IMG/VR virus record: IMGVR_UViG_3300028797_000108
Location: 32,001-96,000 of that record
DNA length: 64,000 nucleotides
Source of the DNA: a virus
Lineage: Duplodnaviria > Caudoviricetes
Reading direction: 5' to 3' (one strand)
Numbering within the stretch: position 1 is the stretch's first letter; every line of letters starts with the position of its first letter. The position numbers and the translations under genes were made by a program. The notes beneath the pieces were generated by a model. That model saw only the letters and a program-made list of their open reading frames with translations, did not search any database and was not told the origin of the DNA. Below, one piece after another: positions 58,453-64,000 of the stretch.

Positions 58453-58536
58453 GGCCTTATGGCGGAACTGGTAGACGCTGGGGACTTAAAATCCCCTGCC
58501 AGTAATGGCGTCCGGGTTCGAGTCCCGGTGGGGCCA
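58453..58536 (+). tRNA. tRNA-Leu(TAA)
   Basis: Cloverleaf, loop CTTAAAA, long variable arm. Confidence 0.95.
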
Positions 58537-58545
58537 TACATTTTT

Positions 58546-58677
58546 CGGGCGATAGTTCAAGCGGTCGGGAATACTTTCCGAGTAAAACAGAACGATCTCA
58601 GACCTTCGTGCTAGGTCGCGAGAAAACACGAAGTTAGGACGATAGACTTCCCTGGGTTCAAGTCCTGGGGCGCTCGC
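58546..58677 (+). ncRNA. tRNA-like RNA with expanded D-loop and anticodon arm
   Basis: Acceptor CGGGCG/CGCTCG, D-stem GTTC/GAAC, T-arm CTGGG-TTCAAGT-CCTGG; extra hairpins inserted in D and anticodon regions. Confidence 0.7.
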
Positions 58678-58687
58678 TAGCTTTTAT

Positions 58688-58761
58688 ACCCTAGTAGCTC
58701 AACTGGATAGAGCAACGCTCTTCTAAAGCGTGGGTTGCAGGTTCGAGTCCTGCCTAGGGTA
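58688..58761 (+). tRNA. tRNA-Arg(TCT)
   Basis: Cloverleaf, loop CTTCTAA. Confidence 0.95.
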
Positions 58762-58768
58762 CTTCTTT

Positions 58769-58840
58769 GAGGGTAAAGCTTTGACGGTGAAGCAATAGAC
58801 TTTTAATCTATGGAACCGGCTTCGAGCTCCGGTACCCTCA
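58769..58840 (+). tRNA. tRNA-Lys(TTT), atypical T-arm and A8
   Basis: GAGGGTA/TACCCTC acceptor, loop CTTTTAA. Confidence 0.8.
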
Positions 58841-58850
58841 CTAAATTTCT

Positions 58851-58921
58851 TGCCGGTTCGTATAGCGGTAGTATAGGGGACTTTGAATCCTTTGGCGTTG
58901 GTCCGACTCCAGCACCGGCAG
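58851..58921 (+). tRNA. tRNA-Gln(TTG)
   Basis: Loop CTTTGAA; T-loop TCCGACT. Confidence 0.9.
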
Positions 58922-58985
58922 CTATAGATCACGAGGTGTGCAAATCCCTCAAGCAGAGTGAACTGCGATAACAAGTTAAACTCAA

Positions 58986-59058
58986 CGGCAGATAGCACAA
59001 TGGTTAGTGCAGCGGACTCATAACCCGCCGGTTGAAGGTTCAAATCCTTCTTTGCCGA
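58986..59058 (+). tRNA. tRNA-Met or Ile2 (CAT)
   Basis: Loop CTCATAA; C1-G72 paired (elongator type). Confidence 0.85.
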
Positions 59059-59119
59059 TAGTTAATAAACTGTTGATAAAACTGTGCATTAACTGTATAA
59101 TTCAAATTTTGAACTATTC

Positions 59120-59145
59120 ATGGCGCCCTAAAAAGCGCCATTTTT
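59120..59145 (+). terminator. intrinsic terminator
   Basis: ATGGCGC-CCTAAAAA-GCGCCAT followed by TTTT. Confidence 0.75.
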
Positions 59146-59286
59146 CTATCTCAAAACGATGAAATTTAAGCAGTTATATTACAGTAATTTACAGTAAACC
59201 GCGTAGATTGTGTTGATTTAAGCACTGTTGATATATTGTCAATTTGATCATAAATCACTGTAAATAAAAAATTTACATTTCTACCA

Positions 59287-59315
59287 TTGACGGACTTCCA
59301 GATAGTTGTTATATT
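59287..59315 (+). promoter_or_regulatory. early promoter
   Basis: TTGACG-N17-TATATT followed by TTACTCGTAAATTGAAAACAA, identical to the region after the 50958 promoter. Confidence 0.85.
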
Positions 59316-59351
59316 TTACTCGTAAATTGAAAACAACAAGGAAACTGGAAT

Positions 59352-59543
59352 ATGAACAAACAAGAACTGATCCGCGCGCTGATTGAAACCGCCGAAAAGG
59401 AAGGCTCAAACATTCATTTTGACCATCAATTTGGGTGGGACGGTTTTGTTGATTCCAACGGCGAATTCTGGGCTACCGACGGTCACTCCGTCTCCGAAAT
59501 TTGTCGCAGAATTTTCAGTGCCTGTCAGGAAGAATTCATCTAA
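59352..59543 (+). CDS. hypothetical protein
   Basis: First ORF after promoter. Confidence 0.6.
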   Translation: MNKQELIRALIETAEKEGSNIHFDHQFGWDGFVDSNGEFWATDGHSVSEICRRIFSACQEEFI

Positions 59544-59555
59544 GGAGAACCGACA

Positions 59556-60128
59556 ATGATTTTGAAAATCAACTACGCTCGTGCCCTTTACGTTGAATCT
59601 GACACGATCTATCCGGAAGGTCCCAACAGCGACCACACCTATCAAACGGTGCGCTGCGACGGCCGCATCCGCAAGACCTGTTGGTTCCGCCTCGGTGAAG
59701 CATTCTTGAAGTTCCCCGAACATCGCGCGGTCACCCGCAAGGAAATCGCCGCAGTGATGGAACATACCTTCAGCCCTGACGGCACAAAGGATTGGGGCAC
59801 GGGTATCTGGAGTCCGGATATGTGGACGACCTTCGTTCATGATGGCTTCATCAAGAAGTTTCAGAACGGAAATCGCTTCACCTATATGCTCTCCGATTGG
59901 GGTCGCAGGACTACCATCGCAGCGCAGCGCGACTTCAGCAAGGAATTCACGAAGGCAACGCTTCGCATTCAGGCTATGCCCAAATCGGTTGAAGAAGCCA
60001 AGCAGCTCGTCAAGATCAAGTTTGACAAGCACGAGAATTACCTCGCCCGCAAGGCCGCAGGTTTTCCGAAAAAGAAGGCTCGCCTCGCAAAGGCTGCCCT
60101 CCGCGCTGAAGCAAAAATTTTGAAATAA
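59556..60128 (+). CDS. hypothetical basic protein (possible winged helix)
   Basis: AAGGAG SD; VTRKEIA...DGFIKK...YMLSDWG resembles a wHTH. Confidence 0.65.
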   Translation: MILKINYARALYVESDTIYPEGPNSDHTYQTVRCDGRIRKTCWFRLGEAFLKFPEHRAVTRKEIAAVMEHTFSPDGTKDWGTGIWSPDMWTTFVHDGFIKKFQNGNRFTYMLSDWGRRTTIAAQRDFSKEFTKATLRIQAMPKSVEEAKQLVKIKFDKHENYLARKAAGFPKKKARLAKAALRAEAKILK

Positions 60129-60153
60129 AATGAAAAAAATTCAAAATTTACCC

Positions 60154-60182
60154 TTGACAGTTCAAAATTAAATTGTTATATT
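60154..60182 (+). promoter_or_regulatory. early promoter
   Basis: TTGACA-N17-TATATT. Confidence 0.85.
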
Positions 60183-60496
60183 TTAACTGTTGAAATTGAA
60201 CAACTACTGCCTCTGGTTCAACGCCGCGGGCCACGCAGGACAACAAAAACCCACGCGGTTCACCTACTGCCCATCCTAGGAAGGGCGACAACTTGGAGAT
60301 TGAAATGAAACTTTTGACGTGTATGTAGAACGGTTTGAGCTTTCATCGTATCAGCTCATCAATGATTGGGGCGATGAAGGCGAGCGGATTTTGATCCCAC
60401 CGTTGCGGTAGGCCTAGATGAGCGTTGCTCGAGTTGCAGAAGATCCTCGGAAAAATCTTCACGGGCGTCACCCGGAAAAAATTGACAAAAATACCC

Positions 60497-60525
60497 TTGA
60501 CAGTTTCAGAAAACTATTTTATATT
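60497..60525 (+). promoter_or_regulatory. early promoter for the tRNA/ncRNA operon
   Basis: TTGACA-N17-TATATT, embedded in an inverted repeat (60497-60538). Confidence 0.75.
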
Positions 60526-60611
60526 TGATACTGTCAAAACAAAATCAATCCCGAGCGGATTTGATTGCAGCTTGAAATAGCGGAAACACAAGATTTTGAA
60601 AAGTTGTTGTT

Positions 60612-60619
60612 TATAAATA
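60612..60619 (+). promoter_or_regulatory. late promoter TATAAATA upstream of the tRNA operon
   Basis: Exact consensus at the apex of inverted repeat 60602-60631. Confidence 0.7.
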
Positions 60620-60637
60620 TGAATAACAACTGAACAT

Positions 60638-60710
60638 GCCTCGGTGGCGCAATTGGTAGCGCAGCGGACTCTTAATCCGTGGGTTGAAGGTTCGAGTCCT
60701 TCCCGGGGCA
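60638..60710 (+). tRNA. tRNA-Lys(CTT)
   Basis: Loop CTCTTAA. Confidence 0.95.
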
Positions 60711-60909
60711 CTACTGGACAAGATCGCGTCAAACTGAAGAGGATTGTTAGTAGTAGCGAAGTACAAGCTATGAACAGGGTTGCTAGTAGGTTTGATGGCA
60801 ACGCGTGCAGACCCCACCGATGAGGAGGGGTGAACTGCAGAGGAACCCGACCTGGGGGCGCATCGGGGTGAGTCTTGACAATTTGATGAAAGCGAATCAT
60901 CGCAAGTCG

Positions 60910-60987
60910 TTGGATGTAGTTATAAATGGAAAAACAGGGTCCGCTTCGGCGAGCTCATAATTGTGGGTCCGACTCCCACCGTCCGTA
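60910..60987 (+). ncRNA. tRNA-like RNA with anticodon loop replaced by a cUUCGg tetraloop
   Basis: Acceptor TGGATG/CGTCCG; D GTT..AAC; arm GGGT-C-CGC-TTCG-GCG-A-GCTC; T-arm GTGGG-TCCGACT-CCCAC. Confidence 0.75.
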
Positions 60988-61117
60988 AAACGATTCTGTG
61001 AGTAGTCAAAGGGCTAATCTAAAGCTTGCCTCCAATGCGAAAAAAGCTGAGCGTGCCACCGGCGAGCGATGGTGGGGTTACAGCATAACCACAAAGCTGC
61101 ACAATGCAAGATCGCCT

Positions 61118-61199
61118 TCGGCAGATAGTTCAAGCGTAGAACATCGGGTTGTCCCCGAAGATTACTGGGTAAAAGCCAAGGCTACCAGAAGTCACCGAT
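61118..61199 (+). ncRNA. degenerate tRNA-like RNA (5-nt anticodon loop, remodelled T-loop)
   Basis: TCGGCAGA-TA-GTTC-AAGCGTA-GAAC-A-TCGGG-TTGTC-CCCGA ... CTGG..CCAG ... TCACCGA. Confidence 0.55.
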
Positions 61200-61326
61200 T
61201 GTTGCATATCCTGCTTGGGTCGCGGTTGGTCCCGTGAGACTCGCTCAGGCTTGGTTGAAGGTTCAACAAGTAAAAGAGGACTTAGGCTTGCTTGGCGCCT
61301 TAAGCCTAACCAGCACAAGCATTATT

Positions 61327-61400
61327 GGGGTCATAGCTCAATTTGGTAGAGCACTAGCTTTGCAAGCTAGGGGTTCCGGGTTCGAGTCCCGGTGGCTCCA
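61327..61400 (+). tRNA. tRNA-Ala(TGC)
   Basis: Loop TTTGCAA; G3-U70. Confidence 0.95.
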
Positions 61401-61411
61401 CGAAACATTTC

Positions 61412-61773
61412 GGGCTCCCTCCGCCATTTGCAAGTAAGACAAAGAAGGCACGACAAACCGAAAGTAGTTACATTGGTTGCTCTTTGTGGCTGCGATCTTG
61501 GTCCTTCCTAATGAAAGTACCATACAAAGGAGTAGGTAGATCCGTGAAGGAATCGCTCTAAGCTGGAGTAGATCGGATCGGGAATCGCTGAAACGACCGA
61601 AGATGCCTATAACAGAAAGGTTGATGGTGTGCAGCTAGCACTGTCGCTGAAGTAAATGTGCGGCATTGGAAGGATGGAAACGGTGAGGCGGTATACTGAT
61701 GGGACAGGGATAAGCTCCTGACTTTTAGGTATATGTGGTAGCCACTGTGGAGGTTCAAATCCTTCGGTGCCCA
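61412..61773 (+). ncRNA. ~360-nt RNA closed by a tRNA-like acceptor stem and T-arm
   Basis: 5' GGGCTCC pairs with 3' GGTGCCC-A (one mismatch); T-arm GGAGG-TTCAAAT-CCTTC; variable arm GTGG-TAG-CCAC; followed by CTA like the true tRNAs. Confidence 0.65.
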
Positions 61774-61784
61774 CTAATTATTAT

Positions 61785-61858
61785 TGGATTGTAGCTCAGT
61801 TTGGTAGAGCGGTCGGCTGTTAACCGATTGGTCGCAGGTTCGAGTCCTGCCTTTCCAG
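61785..61858 (+). tRNA. tRNA-Asn(GTT)
   Basis: Loop CTGTTAA; two U-U mismatches in the acceptor stem. Confidence 0.9.
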
Positions 61859-61885
61859 CTAAACGCCGATTAGGCAACATTTTCT

Positions 61886-61961
61886 GTGCTATAGCCGTCC
61901 GCAGGAATCGGACGCCGGCAGTCGCCGGAAATCAGTGGTTCAATTCCACTCGTAGCCACCA
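61886..61961 (+). ncRNA. tRNA-like RNA with 4-nt anticodon loop and encoded CCA
   Basis: D CGTCCG-CAGGAAT-CGGACG; arm CCGGC-AGTC-GCCGG; T AGTGG-TTCAATT-CCACT; ends GTAGCCACCA. Confidence 0.75.
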
Positions 61962-62075
61962 AAGGAAATGGCTTGGTTAAGATAACCTCAACATCAAGTA
62001 GCCGAAAGGTGTGGGACACTTGACGATCAGACAACTCGAGTAATGCTGAACGCTTGAGTCCCAGCGCTTTTGATT

Positions 62076-62148
62076 GCCTGTATAGCTCAGCTGGTAGAGC
62101 AGCGGCTTTGTAACCCGCAGGTCGGGGGTTCGGATCCCTCTGCAGGCG
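62076..62148 (+). tRNA. tRNA-Thr(TGT)
   Basis: Loop TTTGTAA. Confidence 0.9.
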
Positions 62149-62286
62149 CTAATGGTTGAATGTTGGGTATCCTATAGGAATAAACAATAGCCTATAGGTG
62201 GACCGAGCCCCGTTCTGTAATGGGATGGGTGCCCGCATTTCACAATGCCGGTAGTCCGGTGGTGGCGGAACCACCTTAAAAACTTG

Positions 62287-62361
62287 CGGGCTGTAGCTCA
62301 GTCTGGCTAGAGCACTTGATTTGGGATCAAGGGGTCGTGGGTTCAAATCCCGCCAGCCCGA
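62287..62361 (+). tRNA. tRNA-Pro(TGG)
   Basis: Loop TTTGGGA. Confidence 0.95.
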
Positions 62362-62370
62362 TAACATTAT

Positions 62371-62443
62371 TGCGGAGTGGAGCAGTGGTTAGCTCGGCAG
62401 CCTCATAAGCTGAAGGTCGTGGGTTCAAGTCCCACCTCCGCTA
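62371..62443 (+). tRNA. tRNA-Met(CAT), initiator-like
   Basis: U1xU72 mismatch, fMet-like D-arm GGAGCAG..AGCTC, loop CTCATAA. Confidence 0.9.
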
Positions 62444-62455
62444 CTAAAAGTATTT

Positions 62456-62541
62456 GCCAGTGCGCCGACGTTGGAGAGTCGGACCGGACTGTAAATCCGG
62501 GGCCCTCACGGGCTTTGGTGGTTCAAATCCACCCTCTGGCA
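62456..62541 (+). tRNA. tRNA-Tyr(GTA)
   Basis: Loop CTGTAAA, long variable arm. Confidence 0.9.
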
Positions 62542-62555
62542 CGAAAAGAATTTTT

Positions 62556-62627
62556 GGCTCCTTGGTCTAGAGGTTAGGACACCACATTTTCAATGTGAGA
62601 ACCCGGGTTCGAGTCCCGGAGGAGCTA
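62556..62627 (+). tRNA. tRNA-Glu(TTC)
   Basis: Loop TTTTCAA. Confidence 0.9.
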
Positions 62628-62634
62628 CTAAGCC

Positions 62635-62709
62635 TCGGATGGCATCGTTTGATTATGGCAAGACGCCCACGCGAAGTGGGAAAGAGCGGTCCGAATCCGC
62701 TTGCCTGAA
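62635..62709 (+). ncRNA. tRNA-like RNA with 5-nt anticodon loop and bulged acceptor
   Basis: TCG(GAT)GGCA/TGCCTGA; D CGTTT..AGACG; arm CCCAC-GCGAA-GTGGG; T AGCGG-TCCGAAT-CCGCT. Confidence 0.7.
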
Positions 62710-62786
62710 CAGTGAGTACACGGTCTGGGGCTAGGAGCAAAAAGCTGAGAGACGTCGTAGGTGTATTGCTCCGGTACTTTTGAATT

Positions 62787-62857
62787 GGGTTCATAGTTTA
62801 ATGGATGAATACCGGCTTGTCACGCCGGCGGTACGGGATCGTGACCCGTTGGACCCG
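62787..62857 (+). tRNA. tRNA-Asp(GTC), atypical T-loop ATCGTGA
   Basis: Loop TTGTCAC. Confidence 0.85.
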
Positions 62858-63086
62858 CTAAAAATTGCTGTTTGACAAATCAGGTGAACTGCAGATAGCC
62901 TGAGGCGTTGATTGCGGTTTGAGGTCCGGCGACGGCTGGATGCAAAGGAATAGCCGGAAGCGCGGTTCTAGAGGAAGTTCCTCAGGAGCCGGTGAAGGGA
63001 GGCCCCAAAAGGGCATTAAAACAACGGCGGGAAGGCACCCTCTAAAGAGCTCTGAATATGCAGCCCTCAGAGCAAACAGCAACTAT

Positions 63087-63160
63087 CGGCATGCATAACG
63101 ATTGGTTCGTTTGCCACTCTGATAAGGTGGAGATTGAAGGTTCAACTCCTTCCGTGCCGA
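63087..63160 (+). tRNA. tRNA-Ile(GAT), atypical D-arm
   Basis: Loop CTGATAA; T GAAGG-TTCAACT-CCTTC. Confidence 0.85.
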
Positions 63161-63228
63161 CTAAAGATACTTACAGCAAAGTTATCAACATTCTTTTTTT
63201 GGTAGAATCGCAAAGGTATCTTGATTAT

Positions 63229-63301
63229 GCCGCGGTAGCCTAGGTGGTCATGGCGCGGGACTGAAAATCCTGAGATGTTGGTCCGATTCCAACCCTCGGC
63301 A
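63229..63301 (+). tRNA. tRNA-Phe(GAA)
   Basis: Loop CTGAAAA; T-loop TCCGATT. Confidence 0.9.
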
Positions 63302-63314
63302 CTAAAACAATTAT

Positions 63315-63386
63315 AGCGGGGAGAGGATGGTTCCTCCGCCGGTCTCATAAGCCGTGCTTCTGCAGGTTCGAGTCCTGCCGCCGCTA
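63315..63386 (+). tRNA. tRNA-Met(CAT) with shortened D-arm
   Basis: Loop CTCATAA; T GCAGG-TTCGAGT-CCTGC. Confidence 0.8.
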
Positions 63387-63390
63387 CTAT

Positions 63391-63474
63391 GGCCTACTGG
63401 CGGAACTGGTAGACGCGCCTGACTTAGGATCAGGTGCCCGTGAGGGCGTGGGAGTTCGAGTCTCTCGTAGGTCA
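63391..63474 (+). tRNA. tRNA-Leu(TAG)
   Basis: Loop CTTAGGA, long variable arm. Confidence 0.95.
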
Positions 63475-63494
63475 CTAAAACACAAGGAGTTATT

Positions 63495-63701
63495 ATGACT
63501 GAACAAGAAGCAAAAAGAGCAAAAGAAATTGAAGCAATGCTGAATTGGAATTTGCAGCGATCCCAGGCCTTGGGTGAATTCCCTTTGCCCGTCACTTGTG
63601 GTATCACTCAGATCTTTAACTGCGTTCAGTCTGAAAGGGCGGCTGCTTGGAAGCGCAAGAATGATATTGCGAACGGGCGAGTCCCTGATTCGGTTCCGTA
63701 G
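63495..63701 (+). CDS. 68-aa hypothetical protein inside the tRNA operon
   Basis: AAGGAG SD; its stop codon lies inside the next tRNA. Confidence 0.6.
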   Translation: MTEQEAKRAKEIEAMLNWNLQRSQALGEFPLPVTCGITQIFNCVQSERAAAWKRKNDIANGRVPDSVP

Positions 63702-63767
63702 CTCAGTCGGATTTAGAGCGCCACGCTACGAACGTGGAGGTCCCAGGTTCGAGTCCTGGCGGAACTA
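63692..63767 (+). tRNA. tRNA-Arg(ACG)
   Basis: Loop CTACGAA. Confidence 0.95.
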
Positions 63768-63824
63768 CTAAAGCGGTTTGGGTGGAGGTACGTCGCCGTT
63801 ATAAATATCTCAAATCGCTTTTAT

Positions 63825-63908
63825 GCTTACATGAATCCGAGCGGCAAAGGACGCAGTCTGCAAAACTGCGGGCGAAAGCCTTCGCAGGTTCGAGTCCTGC
63901 TGTAAGCT
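63825..63908 (+). tRNA. tRNA-Cys(GCA) with long variable arm
   Basis: Loop CTGCAAA, U73, variable arm GGC-GAAA-GCC. Confidence 0.85.
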
Positions 63909-64000
63909 CTAATAAAGATAGAGACAGCAAAATTAAATGCTATCCCAAGGCTGAAACGAGGGGTCCGAATCCCCTCATGGAGGTTGGTCTTCCATTCGTC

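What the first reader, a model, noticed from the sequence alone, without database searches (positions are those of the whole stretch)
58546..62709. Array of anticodon-less tRNA-mimic RNAs interleaved with real tRNAs
Seen: six elements (58546, 60910, 61118, 61412, 61886, 62635) keep a tRNA-like acceptor stem and most of the elbow (D-arm and/or T-arm), but none has a 7-nt anticodon loop. The loop is a cUUCGg cap, 4 nt, 5 nt (twice) or an inserted multi-helix domain. Stems remain paired with different sequences, and the defect falls on the same arm each time, which is not what random pseudogene decay produces. Established: tRNA-shaped RNAs without an anticodon are known (tmRNA TLD, bacterial YrlA Y RNAs), and anticodon nucleases (PrrC, RloC, PARIS AriB, VapC) are anti-phage effectors. 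Inference: this is a dedicated phage set of tRNA mimics, acting as uncleavable decoys or inhibitors of tRNA-targeting defence or stringent-response proteins, or as RNase P/RNase Z processing tags that release the neighbouring ncRNAs.
Basis: partly seen in the sequence, partly recalled or inferred. Interest (0 to 1): 0.9.

Follow-up and report, generated by a model that had tools for sequence, protein, structure and literature searches.

The report
Non-decoding tRNA look-alikes in phage array
A large T4-like phage from the cow rumen carries, between its 29 ordinary tRNA genes, several RNAs that keep the shape of a tRNA but cannot read codons; three are kept by natural selection, and they resemble the long-known, still unexplained 'tRNA-like stable RNAs' of phage T5.

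Summary
Five of the six elements (58547, 60910, 61412, 61888, 62657) carry a canonical T-arm closed by an acceptor-like stem. This motif occurs 8 times in 4.6 kb of array spacer, against once in 132 kb outside. None is called by ARAGORN or Rfam. The sixth (61118) has no T-arm and looks like a tRNA remnant inside a longer spacer RNA.

Three are under selection for shape. E5 has homologs in two other phages, with 60/60 base-pair cells kept over 20 pairs and a 4-5 nt cap where the anticodon loop should be. E4 (362 nt) is conserved in a distant relative, with 12 compensatory pairs and none broken. E1 is 95% conserved between divergent 10-nt spacers. E2 is a paralog of an odd tRNA whose anticodon arm was rebuilt into an 8-bp UUCG-capped stem. 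E6 stands alone.

The units are gained and lost between near-identical phages.

Best reading: selected, non-decoding tRNA-derived RNAs cut from a 4.7-kb array transcript by host tRNA-processing enzymes. Some are sealed shape mimics; others are tRNA shells around conserved cargo. The decoy function is untested.

Closest known: phage T5 RNA1/2/3. Earlier AI notes from this scan report similar RNAs in other phages.

The parts
58547..58676 (+). E1: 130-nt tRNA-shell RNA. It has a 7-position acceptor (A6xG67 mismatch), a D-stem GUUC/GAAC with a 7-bp hairpin grafted into the D-loop, a ~55-nt invariant middle, a class-II-like extra hairpin, a T-arm, G73, and then the C-UA trailer shared with the real tRNAs.
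   Evidence: MFE fold. Homolog L048:8907-9038 is 94.6% identical, while the adjoining 10-11-nt spacers are 36-60% identical. Three changes in the acceptor 3' strand keep pairing. No other homolog was found with model R2.
60910..60987 (+). E2: 78-nt cloverleaf. It has a 6/7-paired acceptor, a 3-bp D-stem with a GG loop, an anticodon-position arm of 8 bp (one mismatch) capped by cUUCGg (UUCG at 60945-60948), and the T-arm GUGGG-UCCGACU-CCCAC.
   Evidence: Fold. The best paralog is the odd 74-nt tRNA(UAG) at L060:10383-10456, with shared D region and variable/T arm, a different but paired acceptor, and a canonical anticodon arm there. No homolog in L045/L048 or in IMG/VR. Present at ~94% identity in a second bovine-gut run.
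61118..61260 (+). E3: doubtful. Its 5' 10 nt are identical to the 5' end of tRNA-Met at 58986. It has a D-like hairpin and a hairpin with a 5-nt loop, then ~90 nt of other sequence and a truncated T-arm 5' half. It is probably a tRNA remnant inside a longer spacer RNA.
   Evidence: No T-arm motif. Fold z-score +0.69. Covered as one piece by RNA-library contig 61005-61281.
61412..61773 (+). E4: 362-nt RNA in a class-II tRNA frame. Acceptor GGGCUCC/GGUGCCC, A73, C-UA trailer. Helix CCGCC/GGCGG in the D-arm place encloses a ~260-nt domain. It also has an elongated anticodon-position arm ending in (A/G)UAAGC, a variable arm and a T-arm.
   Evidence: Homolog in IMGVR_UViG_3300028805_000046 (L001:17554-17934), 87% over the first 194 nt. 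RNAalifold gives 75 pairs, 12 with both sides changed, none broken. No tmRNA, RNase P or other Rfam match. A variant is present in an RNA library and in DNA runs.
61888..61956 (+). E5: 69-nt four-way junction. It has a 5-bp acceptor-like stem, a D-position arm (5-6 bp, loop CAGGAAU with GG), an anticodon-position arm CCGGC-AGUC-GCCGG (4-nt loop), and the T-arm AGUGG-UUCAAUU-CCACU.
   Evidence: Fold z = -2.3. Homologs at L048:11423-11493 and G001 L067:14735-14807. Against L048, 15/15 pairs are kept and 6 are compensatory, while slid controls give 33-50% paired. Across three phages, 60/60 cells are paired and 16 of 20 positions vary. The 3' two-thirds resemble a tRNA-Glu-like element at L056:4646-4721 that has an 8-nt loop. 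E5 is absent from a close variant and from L049.
62657..62705 (+). E6: ~50-nt three-way junction. It has a closing stem GGCA(AG)/(CU)UGCC of 4-6 bp, a hairpin CCCAC-GCGAA-GUGGG, the T-arm AGCGG-UCCGAAU-CCGCU, and no D-arm.
   Evidence: Fold (z = -0.6). T-arm motif. No homolog in any relative or in IMG/VR. Replaced by 51 other letters in a close variant.
60497..60525 (+). Sigma-70-like promoter (TTGACA-17-TATATT) that would drive one ~4.7-kb transcript. The transcript holds tRNA-Lys(CUU), E2-E6 and 23 further tRNAs, and runs to the terminator just past the window end (L003:1263-1291).
   Evidence: No convincing + strand terminator in between.
59120..59141 (+). Intrinsic terminator that closes the first array unit (tRNA-Leu, E1, Arg, Lys, Gln, Met).

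Best explanation
At least E1, E4 and E5, and probably E2, are selected, non-decoding RNAs derived from tRNA genes.

They keep the part of a tRNA that host maturation enzymes read: the acceptor/T-arm minihelix, usually with a GG-bearing D-loop for the elbow. RNase P and the 3' processing enzymes would therefore cut them out of the polycistronic array transcript and leave stable small RNAs (inferred). The decoding part has been rebuilt.

There are two designs:
(A) Sealed shape mimics (E5, E2, perhaps E6). The anticodon arm is a closed hairpin with a 4-5 nt cap whose sequence drifts while pairing is kept. This points to a role that needs only the tRNA shape: occupying a tRNA-binding protein without being decodable, or cleavable in an anticodon loop.
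(B) tRNA shells around conserved cargo (E1, E4). The inserted 55-260 nt domain is the sequence-conserved, presumably active part, and the shell provides excision and stability.

The units behave like accessory genes. They are gained, lost and swapped in the slots between tRNA genes, even among near-identical phages. The protein or RNA partner is unknown.
For: Real and non-random. The T-arm motif occurs 8 times in 4.6 kb of spacers, against 1 in 132 kb outside and 0.04 in shuffles.

Selection on shape. E5 keeps 60/60 paired cells over 20 pairs in three phages, with 16 varying positions, a conserved CAGG(N)AU loop, and an anticodon-position loop of 4/5/4 nt. E4 has 12 compensatory pairs of 75 and none broken. 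E1 is 94.6% identical between 36-60% identical spacers, and its acceptor changes preserve pairing.

An orthologous tRNA-like element just past the window (L003:458-533) has anticodon-position loops of 8, 4 and 6 nt in three phages on a constant body.

E1 and E4 carry the same N73-C-UA 3' trailer as most real tRNAs of the array.

One promoter-to-terminator unit holds E2-E6.

Modularity. E5, the E6 region and a neighbouring spacer RNA are individually skipped in close variants. Genomes 99.9% identical differ by 0.1-1 kb indels in the array. The slots hold other RNAs or small ORFs in relatives.

A true remnant looks different: a truncated, near-identical tRNA-Lys 3' half in G001.

Precedent. T5 RNA1, RNA2 and RNA3 are annotated as tRNA-like stable RNAs inside its tRNA cluster, and they fold with the same designs.
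Against: No direct evidence of discrete transcripts, processing, CCA addition or charging. RNA-library contigs cover neighbouring spacer RNAs and a variant of E4, but not E1, E2, E5 or E6, and such libraries can contain DNA.

E2, E5 and E6 lack the C-UA trailer. E5's acceptor is only 5 bp and may be continued by an outer helix, so E5 may be a domain of a longer RNA and not a free tRNA-sized product.

E1's conservation lies in a mosaic region where the neighbouring ORF and tRNA-Leu are 99% identical, so part of it may reflect recent exchange.

E2 and E6 have no orthologs, so selection on them is not shown. Each covariation test rests on only 2-3 sequences.
Confidence: 0.6

Rival explanations
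1. Anti-defence decoys. The sealed mimics bind and titrate a tRNA-cleaving immune nuclease (PrrC/RloC/PARIS-AriB/Septu/PtuAB type) or another tRNA-sensing host factor. Because they have no anticodon loop to cut, they protect the phage's and the host's real tRNAs.
For: The shape is kept while the anticodon loop is specifically closed. The elements turn over rapidly by presence/absence, like counter-defence genes. Phage tRNA clusters are documented anti-defence loci, for example Septu cleaving tRNA-Tyr and the T4-type tRNA region (abstract of PMC13096335).
Against: No defence system, nuclease or binding partner is identified. No experiment bears on it. Anticodon nucleases generally read the anticodon loop itself, so a loop-less mimic may not bind them. 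The host is unknown.
Confidence: 0.2
2. Decaying tRNA pseudogenes. The array is a birth-and-death region, and the elements are duplicated tRNA genes on their way out, with no function.
For: E3 combines two tRNA-derived fragments and has no T-arm. E6 and E2 have no orthologs. Arrays differ by many indels between close relatives. A truncated tRNA-Lys copy exists in G001.
Against: E5, E4 and E1 keep every helix through compensatory changes across diverged phages. In E2 the anticodon arm is not eroded but rebuilt into a longer perfect-capped stem. Random decay would hit the T-arm and acceptor as often as the anticodon loop.
Confidence: 0.12
3. Processing punctuation. The tRNA-like units exist only to give RNase P and RNase Z cutting sites that release the adjacent non-tRNA spacer RNAs, as in mitochondrial tRNA punctuation or the MHV68 tRNA-miRNA units.
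For: E2 lies exactly between two spacer RNAs that appear as separate RNA-library contigs (60727-60885 and 61005-61281), with E2 itself uncovered. All units lie in one long transcript.
Against: E1 is flanked by real tRNAs with ~10-nt spacers and needs no punctuation. E5 is lost on its own in a variant that keeps the downstream RNA. E5 keeps a conserved D-loop and elbow, which mere punctuation would not require. Contig ends cannot define RNA ends.
Confidence: 0.08

Closest known systems
Phage T5 RNA1, RNA2 and RNA3 ('tRNA-like stable RNA with unknown functions', GenBank AY543070)
   Same: They sit between tRNA genes, small ORFs and promoters in a phage tRNA cluster. RNA1 (144 nt) and RNA2 (125 nt) fold with acceptor, D-arm and T-arm around an enlarged middle, like E1. 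RNA3 (73 nt) is a small cloverleaf-like RNA with a 6-nt loop, like E2 and E5. Their function is unknown.
   Different: No sequence or covariance-model homology to E1 (9 bits). Different phage family and host. Here there are more units, two are conserved across several rumen phages, and one (E4) is 362 nt.
Phage T4 stable RNAs species 1 and 2 (rnaC, rnaD)
   Same: They are small stable RNAs encoded in the tRNA gene cluster of a T4-type phage and co-processed with tRNAs (my own knowledge, not checked here). This phage has T4-type portal and capsid proteins.
   Different: Not compared by sequence. No match in the phage collection beyond ordinary tRNAs.
tmRNA (tRNA-like domain plus large insert)
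   Same: E4 has tmRNA size, an acceptor plus T-arm formed by its two ends, and a large internal domain.
   Different: Pair 3:70 is G-C, not G-U. There is no Rfam or ARAGORN tmRNA call and no tag frame ending in hydrophobic residues. The insert sits at the D-arm place, followed by two further arms.
Bacterial and phage Y RNAs of the YrlA type (Rfam RF02553; Chen et al. 2014, cited in PMC12282133)
   Same: They are non-decoding RNAs with a tRNA-like T-arm/D-arm elbow and a shortened anticodon stem. E5 may likewise be closed by an outer helix.
   Different: Only a 17-bit partial hit, at E4's T-arm (gathering score 69). No Ro60/TROVE gene in the four phage fragments searched.
Irregular and allo-tRNAs in polycistrons (Mukai et al. 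2017, PMC5389517)
   Same: They are non-canonical tRNA-shaped genes in clusters, some in phages and rumen bacteria, and some are proposed to be regulatory and not decoding.
   Different: Those keep anticodon loops and differ in the 8/4 or 9/3 acceptor/T geometry. Here the geometry is 7/5 or 5/5 and the anticodon loop is missing.

Membership tests
Canonical tRNA (Rfam RF00005) | Scores at or above the gathering score of the tRNA covariance model and is called by ARAGORN | tested here: not met
   None of the six is called.
Canonical tRNA (Rfam RF00005) | 5-bp anticodon stem with a 7-nt loop carrying U33 and a purine at 37 | tested here: not met
   E2 has a 4-nt UUCG loop on 8 bp, E5 has 4 nt, E6 has 5 nt and E4 has 6 nt. 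E1 has the 7-nt loop UCGUGCU on a doubled arm without U33/R37.
Canonical tRNA (Rfam RF00005) | Acceptor stem stacked on a T-arm with a T-loop of the UUCRANY type | tested here: met
   Met for E1, E2, E4, E5 and E6. Not met for E3.
tmRNA | G3-U70 alanine identity pair, a match to a tmRNA model, and a tag reading frame | tested here: not met
   E4 has G3-C70 in both homologs. No tmRNA hit in Rfam at E<=10 or in ARAGORN -m. No frame ending in Ala-Ala was seen on inspection.
YrlA / Y RNA | Match to RF02553 | tested here: not met
   The best hit is 17.3 bits against a gathering score of 69, and it covers only E4's T-arm.
YrlA / Y RNA | Linked Ro60 (TROVE) gene | tested here: inconclusive
   No TROVE match in G000, G001, G018 or G023. 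These records are 24-54% complete and the host is unknown.
T5-type tRNA-like stable RNAs | Encoded between tRNA genes of a phage tRNA cluster | tested here: met
T5-type tRNA-like stable RNAs | tRNA-like ends with a non-canonical middle | tested here: met
   Folds of T5 RNA1/2/3 compared with E1, E2 and E5.
T5-type tRNA-like stable RNAs | Accumulates as a stable RNA in infected cells | not testable with these tools
   Only contigs of RNA libraries are available. They cover neighbouring spacers and an E4 variant, not E1, E2, E5 or E6.
T5-type tRNA-like stable RNAs | Sequence or structure homology to T5 RNA1-3 | tested here: not met
   The E1 model scores 9 bits on T5 RNA1. blastn against phages finds only tRNAs.
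tRNA pseudogene | Stems erode and there is no compensatory change between relatives | tested here: not met
   Not met for E1, E4 and E5. Untestable for E2 and E6, which have no orthologs. E3 fits a remnant.
PTH2-linked anticodon-less mimics (earlier AI notes of this scan) | Peptidyl-tRNA-hydrolase-like (PF01981) gene next to the RNAs | tested here: not met
   No PF01981 match in G000, G001, G018 or G023, and the array neighbours have no Pfam or PHROG family. The records are incomplete.

The most novel reading that the evidence does not exclude
The slots between tRNA genes of these rumen T4-like phages hold a horizontally exchanged repertoire of tRNA-shell RNAs. Sealed shape mimics and shells around conserved cargo act as RNA-only counter-defence or host-takeover effectors against proteins that read the tRNA shape. 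The fast-changing anticodon-arm substitutes and the presence/absence polymorphism would then be the trace of an arms race.
Probability: 0.2. Interest if true: 0.85.

Novelty: new variant of a known kind. Interest (0 to 1): 0.6.

Why it matters
tRNA-like stable RNAs have been annotated in the phage T5 tRNA cluster with no assigned function. This rumen phage clade offers natural variation bearing on them: conserved families (E5, E4) with clear covariation, sealed versus cargo-bearing designs, and presence/absence polymorphism among near-identical genomes. If these RNAs turn out to be decoys or scaffolds aimed at tRNA-binding host proteins, they would add an RNA-only layer to phage counter-defence. 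They would also be a natural counterpart of the engineered 'tRNA scaffold' used to express RNAs in bacteria. They also show that tRNA finders leave real genes in phage arrays unannotated.

Tried and rejected
- Unusual decoding tRNAs (intron-bearing, D-armless Ser, frameshift suppressors). Rejected: the array already covers all 20 amino acids. ARAGORN's intron mode adds nothing. E5's 7-nt loop has A33 and varies at position 36 between homologs.
- E4 as tmRNA or RNase P RNA. No Rfam hit at E<=10 and G3-C70. Resemblances to RNase P conserved regions were not kept in the G001 homolog.
- Known large phage RNAs or other Rfam families in the spacers of the window or of relatives: none. My query RF01998 turned out to be a group II intron domain, not GOLLD, so it says nothing about GOLLD.
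- Linked enzymes. No RtcB, T4 Rnl1, CCA-adding enzyme, PTH2 or Ro60 in the fragment. The record is only ~37% complete, so this is uninformative.
- The 190-aa protein conserved inside all the arrays has no family. A low-confidence model (pLDDT 57) has a winged-helix-like core, and I did not pursue it.
- Homolog hunts for E2 and E6 found nothing: exact 21-23-mers in IMG/VR and a pseudo-ORF trick.
- Models R1 and R2 did not separate distant homologs from ordinary tRNAs, so the G001 member of E5 was placed by hand.
- RNA libraries. No contig on E1, E2, E5 or E6. This is not evidence of absence.
- CCA. The window copy of E5 is followed by ACCA, but the homologs are not, so I treat it as chance.

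Full report
**Context**

The window is bases 32001-96000 of a 139-kb viral contig. IMG/VR's completeness estimate for it is about 37%. It encodes a T4-type portal protein and a gp23-type capsid protein. Near-identical DNA is held by many bovine-gut metagenome runs.

The finding lies in a tRNA array: 19 tRNAs are in the window and 29 in all, covering all 20 amino acids, over window 58453-65235. No encoded CCA is present. Most tRNAs are followed by N73-C-UA(A/U).

The array has two transcription units. The first ends at a terminator at 59120-59141. A TTGACA-17-TATATT promoter at 60497-60525 then heads about 4.7 kb with no convincing terminator until L003:1263-1291, which is window 65263-65291. 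E1 lies in the first unit and E2-E6 in the second.

ARAGORN and Rfam call none of the six elements.

I scanned for a strict T-arm motif. It occurs in 25 of 29 tRNAs and 8 times in 4,557 nt of spacers. It occurs once in the remaining 132 kb of the + strand and 3 times on the whole minus strand. Shuffled spacers give 0.04.

Five of the eight orphan T-arms are E1, E2, E4, E5 and E6. The others are a tRNA-Met-like gene at 63315-63385 and two permuted tRNA-like units. Each of the five is followed by a strand that pairs with an upstream acceptor-like strand, and the MFE folds close accordingly.

E3 is different. It has no T-arm, its fold is no better than shuffles (z = +0.69), and it joins two tRNA-derived fragments around unrelated sequence. 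I do not count it as a tRNA mimic.

**Comparative evidence**

I reached relatives through the 190-aa protein encoded inside the array and through the capsid protein. This gave arrays from at least seven related phage lineages.

- **E5.** It has a homolog in L048 that is only about 60% identical. All 15 tested pairs are kept and six carry changes on both sides. Slid controls give 33-50% pairing and no double change. A third member sits in the distant phage G001. Over 20 pairs in three sequences, 60 of 60 cells pair and 16 positions vary. The D-position loop CAGG(N)AU, which carries the GG needed for an elbow, is conserved. The anticodon-position arm ends in 4, 5 and 4 nt. Its 3' two-thirds resemble a tRNA-Glu-like element in L056 that has an 8-nt loop.
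- **E4.** It is conserved in G001: 87% over the first 194 nt, with 30-nt invariant runs, although a neighbouring protein is only 41% identical. RNAalifold predicts 75 pairs, 12 with compensatory change and none broken. These include the acceptor, the T-arm, the variable arm and the elongated anticodon-position arm.
- **E1.** It is 94.6% identical to its L048 homolog, while the 10-11-nt spacers on either side are 36-60% identical. Its three acceptor changes preserve pairing, and it carries the G73-C-UA trailer. The region is mosaic, however: the upstream ORF and tRNA-Leu are 99% identical. Part of E1's conservation may therefore be recent exchange.
- **E2.** It has no ortholog. It is a paralog of an odd 74-nt tRNA(UAG) in L060, with a different but paired acceptor. 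The canonical anticodon arm of that tRNA is replaced in E2 by an 8-bp stem capped by UUCG.
- **E6.** It has no relative anywhere I could search.

An orthologous tRNA-like element just beyond the window (L003:458-533) shows the same pattern. Its body is constant, and its anticodon-position loop is 8, 4 or 6 nt in three phages.

No syntenic slot in a relative holds a normal tRNA in place of a mimic, except the E6 slot in L048. That slot holds a tRNA-Thr which is located elsewhere in the window.

**Modularity**

Contigs from other bovine-gut runs skip E5 alone (61877-61996). They replace the E6 region by 51 letters. They skip the spacer RNA 60713-60880 while keeping E2-E3, and they carry an E4 variant that lacks 61693-61744.

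Four ENA contigs that are 99.7-100% identical elsewhere differ by 0.1-1 kb indels in the array. In relatives the same slots hold unrelated structured RNAs, small ORFs or nothing. The units therefore behave as exchangeable accessory cargo.

**Expression**

Only contigs of two metatranscriptome libraries could be laid. They match 60727-60885 and 61005-61281 almost perfectly, and they also match 60200-60585, 62879-63059 and a variant of E4 (61419-61602). They do not cover E1, E2, E5 or E6.

This is compatible with separate spacer RNAs on either side of E2. It proves neither transcription nor processing.

**Interpretation**

Shown by the tools:
- the fold is real;
- three of the elements are maintained through compensatory change;
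- the anticodon position is non-decoding in every homolog;
- the units are modular.

Inferred from established knowledge: RNase P, RNase Z and the CCA-adding enzyme recognise the acceptor/T-arm minihelix and the elbow. These RNAs would therefore be excised from the long transcript and stabilised like tRNAs.

I distinguish two designs. Sealed shape mimics (E5, E2, perhaps E6) keep only pairing in the rebuilt arm. tRNA shells with cargo (E1, E4) have inserts that are conserved in sequence.

What they bind is unknown. The decoy idea is attractive but untested. Pure punctuation does not explain E1 or the conserved elbow of E5. Pseudogene decay fits E3, and cannot be excluded for E6.

**Comparison with what is known**

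The GenBank record of phage T5 annotates several RNAs inside its tRNA cluster, among tRNAs, small ORFs, promoters and homing endonucleases. RNA1 and RNA2 are annotated as 'tRNA-like stable RNA with unknown functions'. RNA3 is annotated as 'putative tRNA-like RNA'. Four further stable RNAs are also listed.

Their folds show the same two designs, but the E1 model does not recognise them. So this is a new variant of a known, unexplained kind, and not a new category.

tmRNA, YrlA and canonical tRNA membership each fail a defining feature (see the membership table).

Earlier AI notes of this scan report similar anticodon-less mimics and 'tRNA shells with swappable cargo' in other phages. I used them only as leads. 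The T5 lead held. The PTH2 and Ro60 links were not found here, in incomplete records.

Noticed in passing
window 63162-63228, 63910-64000 (continuing to 64044), and L003:216-350, 423-555, 1023-1147: Five units framed by a terminal stem (AGATAC..CAGCAA ... GTATCTTG). Several enclose circularly permuted tRNA-like sequences: T-arm and 3' acceptor strand first, a short linker, then 5' acceptor strand and D-arm. This is the subject of other notes of this scan.
   Followed up: partly
window ~58957, ~60830, ~62885: The motif GTGAACTGC(A/G)GA recurs in three non-tRNA spacers. The spacers at 60727-60885 and 62879-63059 match RNA-library contigs. This is probably another spacer-RNA family.
   Followed up: no
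window 63315-63385: A tRNA-Met(CAU)-like gene with an odd D-arm, missed by ARAGORN and scoring only 25 bits (tRNA-Sec model) in Rfam. It has a CUCAUAA loop, a canonical T-arm and the A-C-UA trailer, so it is probably a real unusual tRNA.
   Followed up: partly
whole array, window 58453-64000 and L003:1-1235: Nearly all tRNAs, plus E1 and E4, are followed by N73-C-UA(A/U) and never by an encoded CCA. This shared 3' trailer signature may mark the processing site.
   Followed up: partly
L045:6276-6562 and L060:8811-9092: The Glu-to-Asp slot of two relatives holds a ~275-nt RNA that starts GGGGUGU and ends GGCACCCC-A-C-UAAAAC, after a degenerate T-arm. It has the same 'tRNA ends plus large middle' design as E4, but no sequence similarity and no Rfam hit.
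   Followed up: partly
L045:5775-5880, L060:8310-8415, L056:4044-4150: The Asn-to-Thr slot of three relatives holds a tRNA-Glu-like body (D-arm UCGUCUAGUAGACUAGGACG). Its anticodon arm differs in stem sequence and loop length between phages, and it is wrapped in an outer helix.
   Followed up: partly
L003:458-533 (window 64458-64533), L048:13586-13662, L060:11247-11324: Orthologous tRNA-like element with a constant body and anticodon-position loops of 8, 4 and 6 nt. ARAGORN calls it tRNA-??? with odd anticodons.
   Followed up: partly
L048 vs L049/L050/L051: Contigs that are 99.7-100% identical elsewhere differ by 100-1020-nt indels bounded by repeated promoter-bearing modules. One deletion removes tRNA-Lys, Ala, Asn and E5 together.
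   Followed up: partly
L067:14669-14722 (G001): A truncated 3' half of tRNA-Lys(CUU) lies directly behind the intact gene. It is a genuine tRNA remnant, useful as a contrast to the maintained mimics.
   Followed up: no
L056:613-1548: A TnpB (OrfB_IS605 / Cas12f1-like) gene sits inside the array region of one relative. The window has a weak, sub-threshold IS605-orfB-II RNA hit at 60496-60633.
   Followed up: no
window 59352-60128: A 63-aa and a 190-aa ORF with no known family are conserved inside the array in all relatives found (31-93% identity). The 190-aa protein has a weak winged-helix-like core.
   Followed up: partly
L045:2823-2986, L062:1198-1315, L063:7463-7577: In relatives, the slot that holds E1 instead holds small ORFs with ribosome-binding sites (about 47 aa, and a 30-aa hydrophobic peptide). 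The inter-tRNA slots therefore carry protein cargo as well as RNA cargo.
   Followed up: no
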